64,000 nucleotides of DNA from a virus. The first letter of the stretch is position 1. Every line of letters begins with the position of its first letter. The stretch is from the UHGV virus genome UHGV-0091736. The stretch is one strand, 5' to 3'. This document shows, piece by piece, positions 38,162-43,045 of the stretch. Below the pieces are notes generated by a model that was not told the origin of the DNA, did not search any database, and saw only the letters and a program-made list of their open reading frames with translations. The translations under genes and the position numbers were made by a program.

Positions 38162-38410
38162 CTACGGAGTTAAGATAATTTCAGCCTTACTAAACTTCTC
38201 ACCAACAACCATATCACCAGAGATGACACGTAGTTCTCCCGTGCCCAAGTTAACAGCTCCAGCAGGTTGGAAACCTCTGCTCTTTGCTGTCAGCATGTAA
38301 GTCTTTTGAAGATGGCACTCTTGGAGAGTGAACACATCTGACATATTTAGGTCTTTAACACGGAGGACTGTTTCCTCTTTGCTCTTAACTTTAACATGAA
38401 TAGTGCTCAT
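38162..38410 (-). CDS. Small protein, member of the tandem paralog family
   Basis: SDVF ... AVNLGTG. Confidence 0.4.
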   Translation of the reverse strand: MSTIHVKVKSKEETVLRVKDLNMSDVFTLQECHLQKTYMLTAKSRGFQPAGAVNLGTGELRVISGDMVVGEKFSKAEIILTP

Positions 38411-38412
38411 AA

Positions 38413-38658
38413 TTACTCCTGAACCACTGACATACGAATTACTTCAACTGGGGTATCACTTTTCATAACACCCAGTACGCCAGTAAGAAGATTAACGGTC
38501 GTAATCCAACCCTCTTCTACAGAGATTTTGTTGGATACATTATTAACACGGATGTGGTACTGAGGAGTTGCTGTTCCTCTCTGAACTACGAAAGGGTTTC
38601 CGGGAATAATTGTAGCCAGTGAAACAGTGTTATCTTTAATCTTTGGGATGATTTTCAT
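38413..38658 (-). CDS. Small protein, member of the tandem paralog family
   Basis: GNPF ... TVNLLTG. Confidence 0.4.
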   Translation of the reverse strand: MKIIPKIKDNTVSLATIIPGNPFVVQRGTATPQYHIRVNNVSNKISVEEGWITTVNLLTGVLGVMKSDTPVEVIRMSVVQE

Positions 38659-38906
38659 TGCGTATTATCCACCAAAAGTTCTGCTGATACAGGAACAACC
38701 TGACAACGACCAAGAGGGGCTGAAACAACCCCATCACCTAGCCGGAGAGTAGGTATCCGGTTATCTGGGATTTTGATGTTAGGACTTAAGGTAACAATTC
38801 CTTTCACATAAAGATCTTCATTGTGTGGGAATTTAAACACAGAACCATTAGCTAGAGAGCTTAGCTCTACTGCTTCTACTTCCTCTTTCTTATATGTGAT
38901 TTTCAT
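38655..38906 (-). CDS. Small protein, member of the tandem paralog family
   Basis: LANGSVF motif. Confidence 0.4.
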   Translation of the reverse strand: MKITYKKEEVEAVELSSLANGSVFKFPHNEDLYVKGIVTLSPNIKIPDNRIPTLRLGDGVVSAPLGRCQVVPVSAELLVDNTQ

Positions 38907-38914
38907 ATTGATTC

Positions 38915-39226
38915 CTATTTAAGTTTGAGGCTAATGTTAAGGTGCATACATGCCCTGTTCTGTACAGCAGCATAACTTCTACCGAGCATGTCAGCCATTC
39001 TCTGAATAGACATGAACCCAGCATTACGGATAAGGAACTGGTCTTCTTCTTTAGACCACTTAACTCGGATTGAAGCTCTTGATATTCCGAATTTAGTACA
39101 AGCTGTGTTAACTGCATTCTCCGTTACATTCATAATCTGAGCAACTTCTTGAACCGAGTACTCTTTGATTAGTCTCCGAAGATTTTCAATCTGCATCGGA
39201 GTCCATATAGTTCTTCGAGCTTTCAT
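38915..39226 (-). CDS. Tandem helix-turn-helix DNA-binding protein
   Basis: Two W-initiated repeats each with HTH-like segments. Confidence 0.4.
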   Translation of the reverse strand: MKARRTIWTPMQIENLRRLIKEYSVQEVAQIMNVTENAVNTACTKFGISRASIRVKWSKEEDQFLIRNAGFMSIQRMADMLGRSYAAVQNRACMHLNISLKLK

Positions 39227-39240
39227 ACATCCTCCAATTA

Positions 39241-39540
39241 AACATTTATATAAGACTTGCTTAGATAAAGATTCAATAAAATAGGGGGAGGGGACGAATC
39301 CTCCCTTATCCTATTAGTCAATATTGCATGTAAGATCTAACAATCGGTTGCCTTTGTAGGAATAAGCGTTATGCTAATCCAGCACTAAACTCCCGCCCCC
39401 TTAGTGGGCTGGGTTATTAAAGGGTAACGCCCTTATGGGCTAGTTACATGAATGTTAGTTTGATAGGAGATCTGAAGTCCTATCTCAAAGGACTCTCGTA
39501 AGAATCCTTCACGATAGTCACGCTTTGAGCGTGGTAGCTC
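39241..39540. other. 300-nt noncoding region with several stable hairpins
   Basis: No ORF; inverted repeats GGGAGG/CCTCCC, AAGGG/CCCTT, AGTCCT/AGGACT. Confidence 0.3.
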
Positions 39541-39541
39541 C

Positions 39542-39763
39542 TTAGTAAACTAAACCTACAGCCTTAGCATCAGGCTGAGGGACCACCTTTGCGCTAGGGC
39601 GATAACCATCCACTGAACCATTCCAAAGATTGACACAGGTGATATATCCATCGTTTATGATGTCTGTTTTAATCCAGAAGTGTTTATCATGACCAAAAAT
39701 ACTTCCGTTTGGCAGTGTGGACAGCTCAACGGTTTTAAGTGACTGCTTAGAGTCTAGTTTCAT
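39542..39763 (-). CDS. Small protein, member of the tandem paralog family
   Basis: LPNGSIF ... CVNLWNG. Confidence 0.4.
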   Translation of the reverse strand: MKLDSKQSLKTVELSTLPNGSIFGHDKHFWIKTDIINDGYITCVNLWNGSVDGYRPSAKVVPQPDAKAVGLVY

Positions 39764-39770
39764 AATAACC

Positions 39771-40019
39771 TCAATCGTCGTAGCATGTATCCCAATACAT
39801 GTAGTTAACGTACGTTCTCGGTTTGAGTCCGTACATGATAAAGTGAGTCTTCTTAATTCTTTCCTTCAAGGTATAATAAAGACCATCACTGAAGTTACCA
39901 ATCTTTACTTGGAAGCGTAAGGAGCGAGCATCCATTCGAAGCATAGAGATTAGCTGTACTCTACTGCCCCCAGCCATCTCTTCCAGAAGCTTCTTTGTGT
40001 TCCAATAATGAGCTGTCAT
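39771..40019 (-). CDS. Hypothetical protein
   Basis: Start taken at internal Met to avoid overlap. Confidence 0.3.
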   Translation of the reverse strand: MTAHYWNTKKLLEEMAGGSRVQLISMLRMDARSLRFQVKIGNFSDGLYYTLKERIKKTHFIMYGLKPRTYVNYMYWDTCYDD

Positions 40020-40020
40020 A

Positions 40021-41070: not shown

Positions 41071-41240
41071 ACTTTACCTTTAATGAAAATATCATTACCA
41101 CAGACACAGCATGAACGAACAACAGTAGCGCCACGCTGAACAATACGAACCTCTTCCTTAATCAGACTAATACGAGCACCGCAGCAAGGGGAGTTGACAT
41201 AAGAGTAACCAGCTTGCGTATGTTTGATTGTTTGCTTAGA
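41064..41240 (-). CDS. Small zinc-ribbon protein (58 aa), not in the ORF track
   Basis: ATG-initiated ORF with CC ... CCVC pairs. Confidence 0.3.
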
Positions 41241-41349
41241 CATTTTAGCTTCCTCTTGTTAGTTTAGGTAAACCACCCCCCAATCACTGCTACACTCATT
41301 CATGTGGAATGCAGATGGGAAAAGCAATTAAAGGTGATTTACCTAAAAC

Positions 41350-41378
41350 AACAAAGGCCACCCGATTGGGCAGCCTTT
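41350..41378 (-). terminator. Rho-independent terminator
   Basis: Hairpin GGCCACCC-GATT-GGGCAGCC with T-rich run on the minus strand. Confidence 0.45.
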
Positions 41379-41381
41379 TAT

Positions 41382-41591
41382 TTATCGATTTACTTCACGA
41401 AGTAAGATAACCTGTAAGTATGTATCATCTGCATTTGACAGAAATGCAAAGTACAACTCTTTTGCTGTATCTATTGAGCAATTAAGACATTTGGATATCT
41501 GAAGAAGCTGGATACTTCGTTCAGTGTTATCCAGAATAGCAATGCGAATAATTTCTCGCATACCGATTACATGGGTATTTTTAACCTTCAT
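41382..41591 (-). CDS. Hypothetical protein
   Basis: Start taken at MKVKN; upstream part of the track ORF overlaps a small coupled ORF. Confidence 0.3.
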   Translation of the reverse strand: MKVKNTHVIGMREIIRIAILDNTERSIQLLQISKCLNCSIDTAKELYFAFLSNADDTYLQVILLREVNR

Positions 41592-42039
41592 AGGTCCAAT
41601 TGCCTTGCTTGTTACGGATGGCTGACATTGCATGAATCCAGAAGCCTTCCAGTTTCAGAGCACCGTTAGCTACTGCATCCATACGTTCAGGGCGGTTCAT
41701 ACGTTTGGTTGATACTTTCATACCTATCTCTCTTTGTTAGTGGAGGCATTATTGCCAGTTGATATAAGGGATAGCCCTAGTCAGGAGACTAATTCTGACC
41801 GCGTACTCATTGCCGACCTTCTCTGCCTAAGAGTTCAGGTTCTAGAGCTATCTCTTATTCCAACTGGTGAAGACTTCCTACCCCTAGGAAGCCTCCTGAA
41901 TCCCAAACCAATACGTACCCCTACATATCGGAAAGTCTTTCGAAAATTAACAGGTTTTAGTCTAACACCGGATGTTCGAGCAAGCTCTCCCTAGCGGTGT
42001 GGCATATGCCTGAATTAATAAGTTAATGAGGAACACCCT

Positions 42040-42070
42040 CACATAGCCCTCTGATAAACACAAGGGCTAT
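42040..42070 (-). repeat. Conserved hairpin element CACATAGCCCT ... AGGGCTAT (copy 2)
   Basis: 8-bp stem; matches the element at 37221-37250. Confidence 0.4.
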
Positions 42071-42079
42071 AAGTCGATG

Positions 42080-42298
42080 TTACTTTTGAGTCAAATACAA
42101 ATCAGGACGAGGCATAACAGTGGTTGATGGATTGAAGTTACCAACATAACCGGTGCTTAGATTAGCAGCCCTACGTAGTCCATTAGAGAGGTCATCATCC
42201 AGCATCAGCCAGAATTTTTGATCATAAGAGAAAACATCACCACTCTTAACATCTTCCACAGTTGCATATTTAGGAGTATCAACTACTTTAATTTCCAT
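42080..42298 (-). CDS. Small protein, member of the tandem paralog family
   Basis: VKSGDVF ... ANLSTG. Confidence 0.4.
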   Translation of the reverse strand: MEIKVVDTPKYATVEDVKSGDVFSYDQKFWLMLDDDLSNGLRRAANLSTGYVGNFNPSTTVMPRPDLYLTQK

Positions 42299-42556
42299 TT
42301 ACTTACCTTTATTAGTAATAACAACGTCATGAAGAAGAACAACCTTGCTCTTCGAGCTGAGCTTAATGACTTGTTTGTTTGTTAGACTGAGAACGACACA
42401 ACCACCATCAGAAGGTTTGGTCTCCTCGATCTGCGATTTAAACAGTTGAACAACCATGTAGAAATCTGCTCGTGTTTCCCTGATTTGGAATACATCTCCA
42501 AGTTCAAGATCACCAACACACAAAGATGGTTCGTTTACCTTCAAATCAATCTTCAT
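42299..42556 (-). CDS. Small protein, member of the tandem paralog family
   Basis: LELGDVF motif. Confidence 0.4.
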   Translation of the reverse strand: MKIDLKVNEPSLCVGDLELGDVFQIRETRADFYMVVQLFKSQIEETKPSDGGCVVLSLTNKQVIKLSSKSKVVLLHDVVITNKGK

Positions 42557-42782
42557 CTTTAACCTCTATGTTAGTTATGTGGAGATCACTGCGTACTTGG
42601 CAAACTTCATCACGATCAAAAGGGATAACCTTTCCAGTGACCACATTAACACAATTTACACCATTTTCTGCGTATCGTGTGTCGGTTCTAATGTAAAGAG
42701 TGTCTTTACGCTCAAACAGAACCCCCGGCTTCATGTTATTTAATCGAATCATCGTACGATCAGATTTAATATTAACTTTCAC
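42546..42782 (-). CDS. Small protein, member of the tandem paralog family
   Basis: KPGVLF ... CVNVVTG. Confidence 0.4.
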   Translation of the reverse strand: MKVNIKSDRTMIRLNNMKPGVLFERKDTLYIRTDTRYAENGVNCVNVVTGKVIPFDRDEVCQVRSDLHITNIEVKDED

Positions 42783-42784
42783 TG

Positions 42785-43045
42785 TTAATCCACCTTATCA
42801 GTAAGTCGAGCATTGTTAATCTTCTTAACAATCACACTATGTCGATCTGCTGAGATCACACCGTTTGAGAGGTTCATGTAGTTTCTACAACCATCTGATT
42901 TGTTAAATCTACAGGAAGCCATGTAAAAATCATCAGAGTTCACAAGGAATTGGAACACATCACCTGAATCGAGATCCCCAAGAGTTAGCTTCTTTGGTGG
43001 ATGGTTCATGTCAATTATCACTGTTAATCTCCTGCTGCTTAGCAA
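42785..43045 (-). CDS. Small protein, member of the tandem paralog family
   Basis: LDSGDVF ... MNLSNG. Confidence 0.4.
   Translation of the reverse strand: MLSSRRLTVIIDMNHPPKKLTLGDLDSGDVFQFLVNSDDFYMASCRFNKSDGCRNYMNLSNGVISADRHSVIVKKINNARLTDKVD

What the first reader, a model, noticed from the sequence alone, without database searches (positions are those of the whole stretch)
38162..43045. Nine tandem paralogous small proteins (72-86 aa) sharing L-x-x-G-D-V-F and V-N-L-x-T-G motifs
Nine minus-strand ORFs share an N-terminal MK(I/V), an L-x-x-G-(D/S)-(V/I)-F motif near residue 20-25, an aromatic (Y/F/W) 11-13 residues later, and a second (V/A)-N-L-x-(T/N)-G motif near residue 50-60. Such an expansion of one fold in an early region suggests diversified host-takeover or anti-defence binders. 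The cluster also holds the tRNA, a Cys-rich lipoprotein and a tandem-HTH protein.
Basis: seen in the sequence. Interest (0 to 1): 0.75.

Follow-up and report, generated by a model that had tools for sequence, protein, structure and literature searches.

The report
Nine-copy small beta-barrel phage protein family
An E. coli phage of the phiEco32/SU10 group carries nine very divergent copies of one small, uncharacterised beta-barrel protein in its early genes; the family is real, widespread in phages, missing from curated domain databases, and its function is still unknown.

Summary
The window is a Kuravirus (phiEco32/SU10-like) genome. Its nine minus-strand ORFs are one family: in leave-one-out profile tests each ranks first of 474 window ORFs (E 5e-4 to 5e-12). 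A profile built only from 123 non-Kuravirus relatives picks out exactly these nine.

Corrections:
- They lie in four groups (m1-3, m4, m5, m6-9), not one array.
- Only one Phe is invariant.
- The ninth gene starts at GTG 43021 (78 aa).

AlphaFold models of two members (pLDDT about 86) give an SH3-like small beta-barrel. It is closest to EF-P/eIF5A domain I, uL2, Tudor and CarD-type barrels, with weak scores and unproven homology.

The family has about 1,385 cluster representatives and no Pfam or NCBIfam model. Its PHROG families are of unknown function. It includes N4 gp21 and C-terminal repeats of Bacteroidota SprT-like proteases.

All nine genes are under purifying selection. Between near-identical Kuraviruses, seven of the nine slots hold alleles only 24-71% identical, and copy number is 8-10.

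My best reading is diversified early-expressed binding modules for host takeover or anti-defence. That is inferred, not shown. No characterised member was found.

The parts
38162..38410 (-). m1, 82 aa family member (phi32_95 / SU10_096 counterpart)
   Evidence: Leave-one-out profile E=1.5e-5, rank 1 of 474. AGGAG ribosome-binding site. dN/dS 0.12-0.30.
38413..38658 (-). m2, 81 aa family member (phi32_96 counterpart)
   Evidence: Leave-one-out E=6.8e-5. Counterparts are 65-94% identical, dN/dS 0.11-0.26. Among the 120 listed hits, 52 distinct 90%-identity clusters are closest to it.
38655..38906 (-). m3, 83 aa family member (phi32_97 counterpart)
   Evidence: Leave-one-out E=4.5e-8. The same slot in SU10 and CHD5UKE1 holds an allele only 24% identical.
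39542..39763 (-). m4, 73 aa family member (phi32_104 counterpart), conserved
   Evidence: Leave-one-out E=5.4e-12. 82-99% identical across five Kuraviruses, dN/dS 0.04-0.22.
40846..41070 (-). m5, 74 aa family member (phi32_109 counterpart). The most divergent copy: it lacks motif 2.
   Evidence: Leave-one-out E=5e-4. AF2 pLDDT 85.5, all-beta. 95-100% conserved where present and absent from phage 1-6af.
42080..42298 (-). m6, 72 aa family member (phi32_113 counterpart)
   Evidence: AF2 pLDDT 85.8, five-strand barrel. Leave-one-out E=4.2e-8. Counterparts are 69-94% identical.
42299..42556 (-). m7, 85 aa family member (phi32_114 counterpart) with a long central insertion
   Evidence: Leave-one-out E=5.2e-9. 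Counterparts are 52-93% identical. 37 residues lie between the motif anchors.
42546..42782 (-). m8, 78 aa family member, GTG start (phi32_115 counterpart)
   Evidence: Leave-one-out E=7.1e-8. Variation among its 39 orthologue clusters is concentrated in loops.
42785..43021 (-). m9, 78 aa family member. The start is revised to GTG 43021; the finding's end of 43045 is an upstream in-frame TTG. phiEco32 has no counterpart.
   Evidence: Leave-one-out E=1e-9. AGGAG ribosome-binding site and a start context shared with m8. Slot absent in phiEco32; occupied in SU10 and NJ01 (about 60% identical) and in 1-6af (33-37%).
47230..47854 (-). Three strong sigma-70-type promoter matches upstream on the same strand. 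They are the likely early promoters feeding this gene block (context, not part of the family).
   Evidence: 10-11 of 12 consensus matches at 47854, 47564 and 47258. SU10 is described as having three sigma-70 promoters in the equivalent spacer.

Best explanation
The nine genes encode paralogous, single-domain, cytoplasmic SH3-like small beta-barrel proteins of an uncurated but widespread phage family.

Shown here:
- They are one family.
- They are real genes under purifying selection.
- They are predicted with confidence to share one all-beta fold.
- The conserved residues are the motif anchors: the G-x-x-F strand, the aromatic Y/F/W, and the N-L-x-T-G turn.
- Length and sequence variation falls after the G-x-x-F strand, in the central segment, and after the T-G turn.
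- Closely related phages carry very different alleles in the same slots and differ in copy number.

Inferred:
- The barrel is a stable scaffold, and its variable loops form a recognition surface.
- Each paralog is made early in infection and binds a different host macromolecule, most likely a protein.
- Binding inhibits or redirects the target, for host takeover or to neutralise defence systems.
- The repertoire is reshuffled between phages by recombination as hosts vary.
For: - Family statistics.
- Real genes: Shine-Dalgarno sequences upstream of all nine and dN/dS 0.0-0.4.
- Early class: synteny with phiEco32 and SU10 early genes and promoters upstream.
- Mosaicism: slot counterparts are 24-100% identical and the divergent alleles have saturated dS. 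Several interspersed genes (g37475, g39771, g40598, g43508) are 95-100% identical. Copy number is 8-10 in five Kuraviruses.
- Variation is concentrated in loops, while the termini and motifs are invariant.
- There is no enzymatic or other domain signature in Pfam or NCBIfam.
- Phage members are mostly acidic (median pI 5.2; 8% basic), which argues against general nucleic-acid binding.
- Multi-copy sets recur in unrelated phages. One has four tandem copies directly upstream of a Prs-like plus Nampt-like gene pair, the domain composition of the NARP1 anti-defence pathway. Phage 7-11 has 4-5 copies in its early region.
- Kuraviruses are reported as broadly resistant to tested defence systems without known inhibitors.
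Against: - No member of the family has any experimental characterisation that I could find.
- No binding partner is predicted.
- The SH3-like relatives found by fold search are mostly RNA-, DNA- or ribosome-binding domains.
- The cellular homologues are fused to SprT-like proteases and carry a basic loop, which suggests DNA binding.
- Four of the nine window members are mildly basic or near-neutral (pI 7.8-9.3).
- Two members (m4, m5) are highly conserved, which does not fit an arms-race picture.
- Several non-family genes in the same region are also mosaic (lipoprotein, g40426, g41382), so mosaicism is a property of the region, not of the family alone.
- The NAD-salvage neighbourhood is a single example.
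Confidence: 0.45

Rival explanations
1. They are small nucleic-acid-binding proteins (DNA, mRNA, tRNA or ribosome). They would act as early regulators of transcription or translation, using the barrel as KOW, Tudor-like, Sso7d-like or EF-P domain I modules do.
For: The best fold matches are EF-P/eIF5A domain I, uL2, KOW, CarD and UvrD/PcrA Tudor-like domains. hhalign places the family's two motifs in register with EF-P domain I (D-L-x-x-G with D-F-x-x-G; N-L-x-T-G with N-L-x-T-G), although P is only 0.02. EFP_N is the only Pfam family hit by more than one of 130 members. Bacteroidota SprT-like proteases carry 1-5 copies with a basic K-R-R-T-R-Y loop. Four window members have pI 7.8-9.3.
Against: 67% of the 131 family representatives have pI below 6 and only 8% are basic. 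The loop that is basic in the SprT fusions, and functional in EF-P, is exactly the hypervariable part in the phage proteins. No homology to EF-P or CarD reaches significance.
Confidence: 0.2
2. They act in phage-versus-phage competition or superinfection exclusion, or are dispensable accessory 'moron-like' cargo with host-strain-specific benefits unrelated to immunity.
For: The region is mosaic and also carries a lipoprotein of a phage lipoprotein family and other variable small genes. Presence or absence of copies varies between close relatives.
Against: The proteins have no signal peptide or membrane segment and negative-to-neutral hydropathy, whereas many exclusion proteins are membrane-associated (general knowledge, not tested here). 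Two members are 95-100% conserved.
Confidence: 0.12
3. The shared motifs are chance similarity among unrelated short ORFs, or the ORFs are not real genes.
For: Pairwise identity is only 13-32%, and some pairs have no significant pairwise hit.
Against: The leave-one-out and independent-profile tests pick out exactly these nine. dN/dS is well below 1. All nine have ribosome-binding sites. The counterparts are annotated as CDS in all related genomes. Both structure models are confident.
Confidence: 0.01

Closest known systems
Coliphage N4 gp21 and PHROG families 6570, 7832, 7431, 8365, 9955, 16423, 10911 and 12612 (all 'unknown function')
   Same: These are true sequence relatives. N4 gp21 scores E=7e-17 against the family profile and is a Foldseek hit of the m6 model. 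The nine window proteins and distant relatives cross-match these PHROGs. Size (about 70-85 aa), the MKI start and both motifs are the same.
   Different: N4 has a single copy, whereas this phage has nine. None of these entries has a known function, so they name the family without explaining it.
EF-P / eIF5A N-terminal KOW-like domain (Pfam PF08207 EFP_N), translation-protein SH3-like barrel
   Different: No significant sequence or profile match was found. The phage proteins lack the conserved P-G-K-G tip loop with the modified Lys/Arg and have a hypervariable segment there instead. They are single-domain proteins without EF-P domains II and III.
Tudor-like RNA-polymerase-interacting domains (CarD / TRCF-RID; UvrD/PcrA C-terminal domain)
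   Different: The scores are at noise level. From memory of the phiEco32 literature (Savalia 2008, not readable here), only gp36 and gp79 co-purified with host RNA polymerase.
C-terminal repeats of Bacteroidota SprT-like metalloproteases (e.g. P0127 from Tenacibaculum, P0277 from Aureibacter tunicatorum)
   Same: The same domain is detected by a profile built only from phage proteins (per-domain E down to 6e-8), in 1-5 copies after the protease domain.
   Different: These are chromosomal, fused to an enzyme, and carry a conserved basic loop (K-R-R-T-R-Y). The free-standing phage proteins are mostly acidic, with a variable loop.
Clustered small early anti-defence or host-takeover genes of phages (anti-CRISPR-type loci, NARP-adjacent genes)
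   Same: Small, early, clustered, mosaic between close relatives, adjacent to an HTH regulator gene (38915-39226). In one unrelated phage the copies lie next to NAD-reconstitution-type genes.
   Different: No member has been shown to inhibit any defence system, and no sequence match to any named anti-defence protein was seen. The resemblance is organisational only.

Membership tests
SH3-like small beta-barrel fold class | Five-stranded, strongly bent antiparallel beta-barrel of about 60-70 residues | tested here: met
EF-P N-terminal KOW-like domain (PF08207) | Match to the Pfam model above its gathering score | tested here: not met
   None of the nine matches. Only 2 of 130 relatives match, with a best E of 0.014. 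hhalign gives probability 2%, P=0.02.
EF-P N-terminal KOW-like domain (PF08207) | Conserved P-G-K-G tip loop carrying the modified Lys/Arg, followed by OB-fold domains II and III | tested here: not met
   The equivalent segment is variable in length. Anchor spacing is 25-37 residues in eight window members (m5, which lacks motif 2, is misaligned) and 20-51 family-wide, with no PGKG. The proteins end after the barrel.
CarD / TRCF-RID Tudor-like domain | Significant sequence or profile similarity to CarD or Mfd RID | tested here: not met
   Profile against PDB: CarD chains at E 0.97-1.1 only. No Pfam hit.
PHROG unknown-function families (12612, 6570, 7832, 7431, 9955, 16423, 10911, 8365) | Significant HMM match | tested here: met
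   Best E values range from 2.7e-42 to 2e-20 for the cognate PHROGs. Up to 5 of 9 members cross-match one PHROG.
The wider family defined here (about 1,385 cluster representatives, including N4 gp21) | Match to a profile built without any Kuravirus sequence, with the G-x-x-F and N-L-x-T-G anchors | tested here: met
   All nine match at E 3.6e-8 to 2.3e-19. The F anchor is invariant, and the motif-2 G is present in 7 of 9.
Known anti-defence protein families | Sequence match to a characterised inhibitor, or demonstrated inhibition of a defence system | not testable with these tools
   No anti-defence library is available. GenBank annotations of 395 matching phage records are all 'hypothetical protein'. 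Literature searches found nothing.

The most novel reading that the evidence does not exclude
The family is a general phage 'binder scaffold': a minimal SH3-like barrel whose loops are diversified and exchanged between phages. Kuraviruses would keep a repertoire of 8-10 of them, each neutralising a different host defence or housekeeping target. This could account for the reported broad resistance of this phage group to defence systems without any known inhibitor. It would also give function to a family of more than a thousand uncharacterised phage proteins, N4 gp21 included.
Probability: 0.2. Interest if true: 0.8.

Novelty: new variant of a known kind. Interest (0 to 1): 0.5.

Why it matters
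The early regions of lytic phages are full of unexplained small genes. Here nine of them collapse into one family. That family also unites N4 gp21, several unknown-function PHROGs, hundreds of Vibrio and enterobacterial phage proteins, and a repeat in bacterial SprT-like proteases. No curated domain model exists for it.

If the members are target-specific inhibitors, the nine paralogs and their many natural alleles are a ready-made panel for finding new host-takeover or anti-defence mechanisms. A small, stable scaffold of this kind could also be engineered. If they are nucleic-acid binders, they would point to an unrecognised layer of early regulation.

A K-12-infecting Kuravirus (BASEL Bas91) is available, so the question can be tested directly.

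Tried and rejected
- **Pfam and NCBIfam** scans of the nine proteins and of 10 + 130 distant relatives found no family. The best recurrent hit was EFP_N in 2 of 130, at noise level.
- **Family profile against PDB sequences** gave nothing below E=0.13.
- **hhalign against EF-P domain I.** A single sequence gave nothing. A four-sequence alignment gave a register-consistent but non-significant match. Homology to EF-P is therefore rejected as a claim and kept only as a lead.
- **The word-indexed protein search** returned only Kuravirus orthologues or ten proteins. The exhaustive profile search was needed to see the family.
- **tblastn** with P0133 found nothing, and with N4 gp21 only near-identical copies. 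BLAST cannot connect the members.
The AFDB Foldseek library was unavailable.
- **Candidate extra members** were examined and rejected: 15825-16103, 27604-27789, 53998-54165 and 44651-44860.
- **P0123**, a 470-aa repeat protein among the profile hits, looks like a spurious match; its repeats look RCC1-like by eye.
- **Recent tandem duplication** is rejected. There is no DNA-level repeat beyond 16-33 nt. Seven of the nine members score better against relatives outside Kuravirus than against any paralog in the window.
- **Literature.** No paper was found that mentions these genes as a family or gives any of them a function. The two primary phiEco32 papers are not held.
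Full report
**What the window is.** Bases 38000-43200 are about 90% identical at the DNA level to Escherichia phages SU10 and phiEco32 and their relatives (genus Kuravirus, Gordonclarkvirinae). All middle and early genes lie on the minus strand, from roughly 4 kb to 50.5 kb. The flagged block corresponds to phiEco32 genes 95-116 and SU10 CDS 96-115. In both phages these genes belong to the early class. SU10 early genes are CDS 69-125. [quoted passage not shown] Three strong sigma-70-type promoter matches (10-11 of 12 consensus positions) lie upstream on the same strand at 47.2-47.9 kb, and another at 49.8 kb.

**Checking the observation.** The nine ORFs are present.

- Pairwise identity is only 13-32%, and several pairs are not significant on their own. 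The family signal is nevertheless unambiguous.
- A profile of seven members finds the other two as the top two of 474 window ORFs.
- In leave-one-out tests every member ranks first, with E from 5e-4 to 5e-12. The best unrelated ORF never does better than 0.009.
- A profile built only from 123 distant, non-Kuravirus relatives retrieves exactly these nine (E 3.6e-8 to 2.3e-19) and then nothing until E=0.14. There are nine members in the window, no more.

All nine have Shine-Dalgarno-like sequences. All nine show dN/dS of 0.0-0.4 against counterparts in five related phages. They are real genes.

Four corrections apply:

1. The genes form four groups (three, one, one and four genes), separated by an HTH regulator, a lipoprotein, the tRNA-Arg, a zinc-ribbon protein and others.
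2. Only the Phe of motif 1 is invariant, and the strict motif definitions fit about half the members.
3. m5 lacks motif 2.
4. m9 almost certainly starts at GTG 43021, giving 78 aa.

**Fold.** AlphaFold2 with the family alignment gives confident all-beta models for m6 (pLDDT 85.8, five strands) and for the outlier m5 (pLDDT 85.5). The family alignment drives both models, so these are not independent tests.

- Foldseek against the PDB puts EF-P/eIF5A domain I and uL2 on top, at E of 5e-3 or worse.
- The family's two motifs resemble the D-F-x-x-G and N-L-x-T-G elements of EF-P domain I, and hhalign aligns them in that register. The probability is only 2% (P=0.02). Neither Pfam EFP_N nor any other model matches.

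I therefore treat the fold class as established at the level of prediction. Descent from EF-P-type barrels remains an untested lead.

**The wider family.** The word-indexed search found only Kuravirus orthologues. The exhaustive profile search found 1,385 cluster representatives at E of 1e-3 or better. Of the 145 new representatives it listed, 131 are 60-100 aa. Their consensus is MKI..K...V.(L/F).DL..G(D/E)VF...YYMKT...(C/A)VNL.TG.L..F...V..V.AEL.

- None of the members scanned has a Pfam hit to this domain, and the nine window proteins have no NCBIfam model. They map to several PHROGs of unknown function.
- Coliphage N4 gp21 is a clear member (E=7e-17, single copy).
- A family consensus finds 395 GenBank phage records, all annotated 'hypothetical protein': 287 Vibrio phages and about 100 Escherichia or Shigella phages.
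- The metagenomic contexts examined are all phage-like. They include a 141-kb phage with RNA ligases, a phage with PDDEXK nuclease and family A DNA polymerase genes (PF00476), and a phi29-like phage.
- The domain also occurs in 1-5 copies at the C-terminus of chromosomal SprT-like metalloproteases of Bacteroidota. There the central loop is a conserved basic K-R-R-T-R-Y.

**Evolutionary behaviour.** Five Kuraviruses carry 8-10 copies in syntenic slots.

- phiEco32 has an extra member (gp98) and lacks m9. CHD5UKE1 and NJ01 have an extra copy between m6 and m7. Phage 1-6af lacks m5.
- m4 and m5 are 82-100% conserved.
- The other seven slots hold, in at least one relative, alleles only 24-71% identical with saturated dS (0.6-3). 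Several interspersed genes are 95-100% identical with dS of 0.05-0.4. This pattern indicates recombinational replacement by old alleles rather than rapid point mutation.
- Some non-family genes in the region behave the same way.
- There is no DNA-level repeat among the paralogs. Seven of the nine are closer to relatives outside Kuravirus than to any paralog in the window. The set is therefore old or assembled by exchange, not a recent tandem duplication.
- Among orthologues of m8 and m2 (39 and 52 clusters), variation peaks after the G-x-x-F strand, in the central segment and after the T-G turn. The termini and motifs are invariant.
- The distance between the two motif anchors ranges from 25 to 37 residues in eight window members (m5 excluded) and from 20 to 51 family-wide.
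- Multi-copy sets recur elsewhere: 4-5 copies in the early region of Salmonella phage 7-11, two tandem copies in one phage contig, and four tandem copies in the 141-kb phage. Those four end 4 bases into a Prs-like gene that is followed by a Nampt-family gene. That pairing is the domain composition of the NARP1 NAD-reconstitution anti-defence pathway. I did not test those two enzymes further.

**Mechanism.** No catalytic or cofactor motif is present. The proteins are barely larger than the barrel itself. Phage members are mostly acidic (median pI 5.2, only 8% basic), although the nine window proteins span pI 4.8-9.3.

The most economical reading is a stable scaffold that presents variable loops as a recognition surface. 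Each paralog would be made early and would bind a different host macromolecule. The aim would be host takeover or neutralisation of immunity, and the repertoire would be reshuffled by recombination. [quoted passage not shown] This is compatible with that reading but does not prove it. I give this explanation about 0.45.

The main rival (about 0.2) is nucleic-acid or ribosome binding. It is suggested by the fold neighbours and by the basic-loop copies in SprT-like proteases. It is weakened by the acidity of most phage members and by the hypervariability of exactly that loop. A role in inter-phage competition, or as strain-specific accessory cargo, is possible (about 0.12). Chance similarity or non-genes is excluded.

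**Novelty and verdict.** The feature is real and statistically solid. It is a new family within a known fold class. It is catalogued only as unknown-function PHROGs and has no curated domain model. No characterised member was found in any annotation or paper I could search; the two primary phiEco32 papers could not be read.

Its functional interpretation is reasonable but untested. Interest is moderate: the finding organises many orphan phage genes and gives a tractable experimental handle, but it reveals no mechanism by itself.

Noticed in passing
window 43011-43307 (-): A 98-aa protein with an N-terminal hydrophobic segment and what looks by eye like a coiled-coil region. Its phiEco32 and CHD5UKE1 counterparts are annotated 'DNA helicase' in GenBank/RefSeq. 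Pfam finds no helicase domain, so this looks like an annotation error that has been propagated.
   Followed up: partly
window 43508-43897 (-): A 129-aa cell-wall hydrolase (PF07486 Hydrolase_2, E=1.7e-7) sits in the early region. It is 99-100% identical across five Kuraviruses while its neighbours are mosaic. An early-expressed, invariant murein hydrolase is unexpected in this position.
   Followed up: partly
window 40021-40320 (-) and 40340-40416 (-): A phage lipoprotein (PF24052, E=3e-34) lies next to tRNA-Arg(TCT). The lipoprotein is itself mosaic: 73-74% identical to phiEco32, SU10, CHD5UKE1 and 1-6af, but 99% identical to NJ01.
   Followed up: partly
window 38915-39226 (-): A 103-aa protein with two HTH segments (Sigma70_r4_2 at residues 18-41, and a second set of weak HTH matches at about 63-91). 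Its stop codon lies 8 bases upstream of the m3 start. It is 98-99% conserved in four relatives but only 63% identical in phiEco32. It may regulate the m3-m1 block.
   Followed up: no
window 41067-41243 (-): A 58-aa protein with two Cys pairs (C-C-G...C-C-V-C-G), probably a zinc ribbon. Its stop overlaps the m5 start by 4 bases, and it is 91-97% conserved.
   Followed up: no
window 41353-41378 (-) and 45355-45382 (-): Two strong terminator-like hairpins (11-12 bp stems with T-rich tails) inside the early transcription unit. One lies between the m6-m9 and m5 groups. Terminator-like sites are about twice as frequent as in shuffled sequence (23 against 10.2). They may attenuate or partition early transcription.
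   Followed up: no
window 39227-39541 and 41722-42079: Two gaps of roughly 320-360 bp with no gene assigned in my map of the otherwise tightly packed early block. The first lies where phiEco32 and SU10 carry several extra small genes. Rfam finds no known RNA family there.
   Followed up: partly
L002 9781-13327 (141-kb metagenomic phage contig): Four tandem family copies run directly into a Prs-like gene (PF00156/PF14572) and a Nampt-family gene (PF04095), the gene pair typical of the NARP1 NAD-reconstitution anti-defence pathway. Salmonella phage 7-11 also has such a pair (gp119/gp120) in its early region.
   Followed up: partly
window 28041-36495 (-): A block of large genes. By homology with the phiEco32 and 7-11 annotations it encodes an ATP-grasp enzyme, a GlmS-like glutamine amidotransferase and a COOH-NH2 ligase. 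Together with the dCTP deaminase noted in the BASEL paper, this could relate to an undescribed DNA or metabolite modification.
   Followed up: no
window 44651-44860 (-): A 69-aa ORF whose sequence (…GRRVVYLYSNKGKCTIGRITTV…) looks like another small SH3/KOW-like barrel. It does not match the family profile.
   Followed up: no
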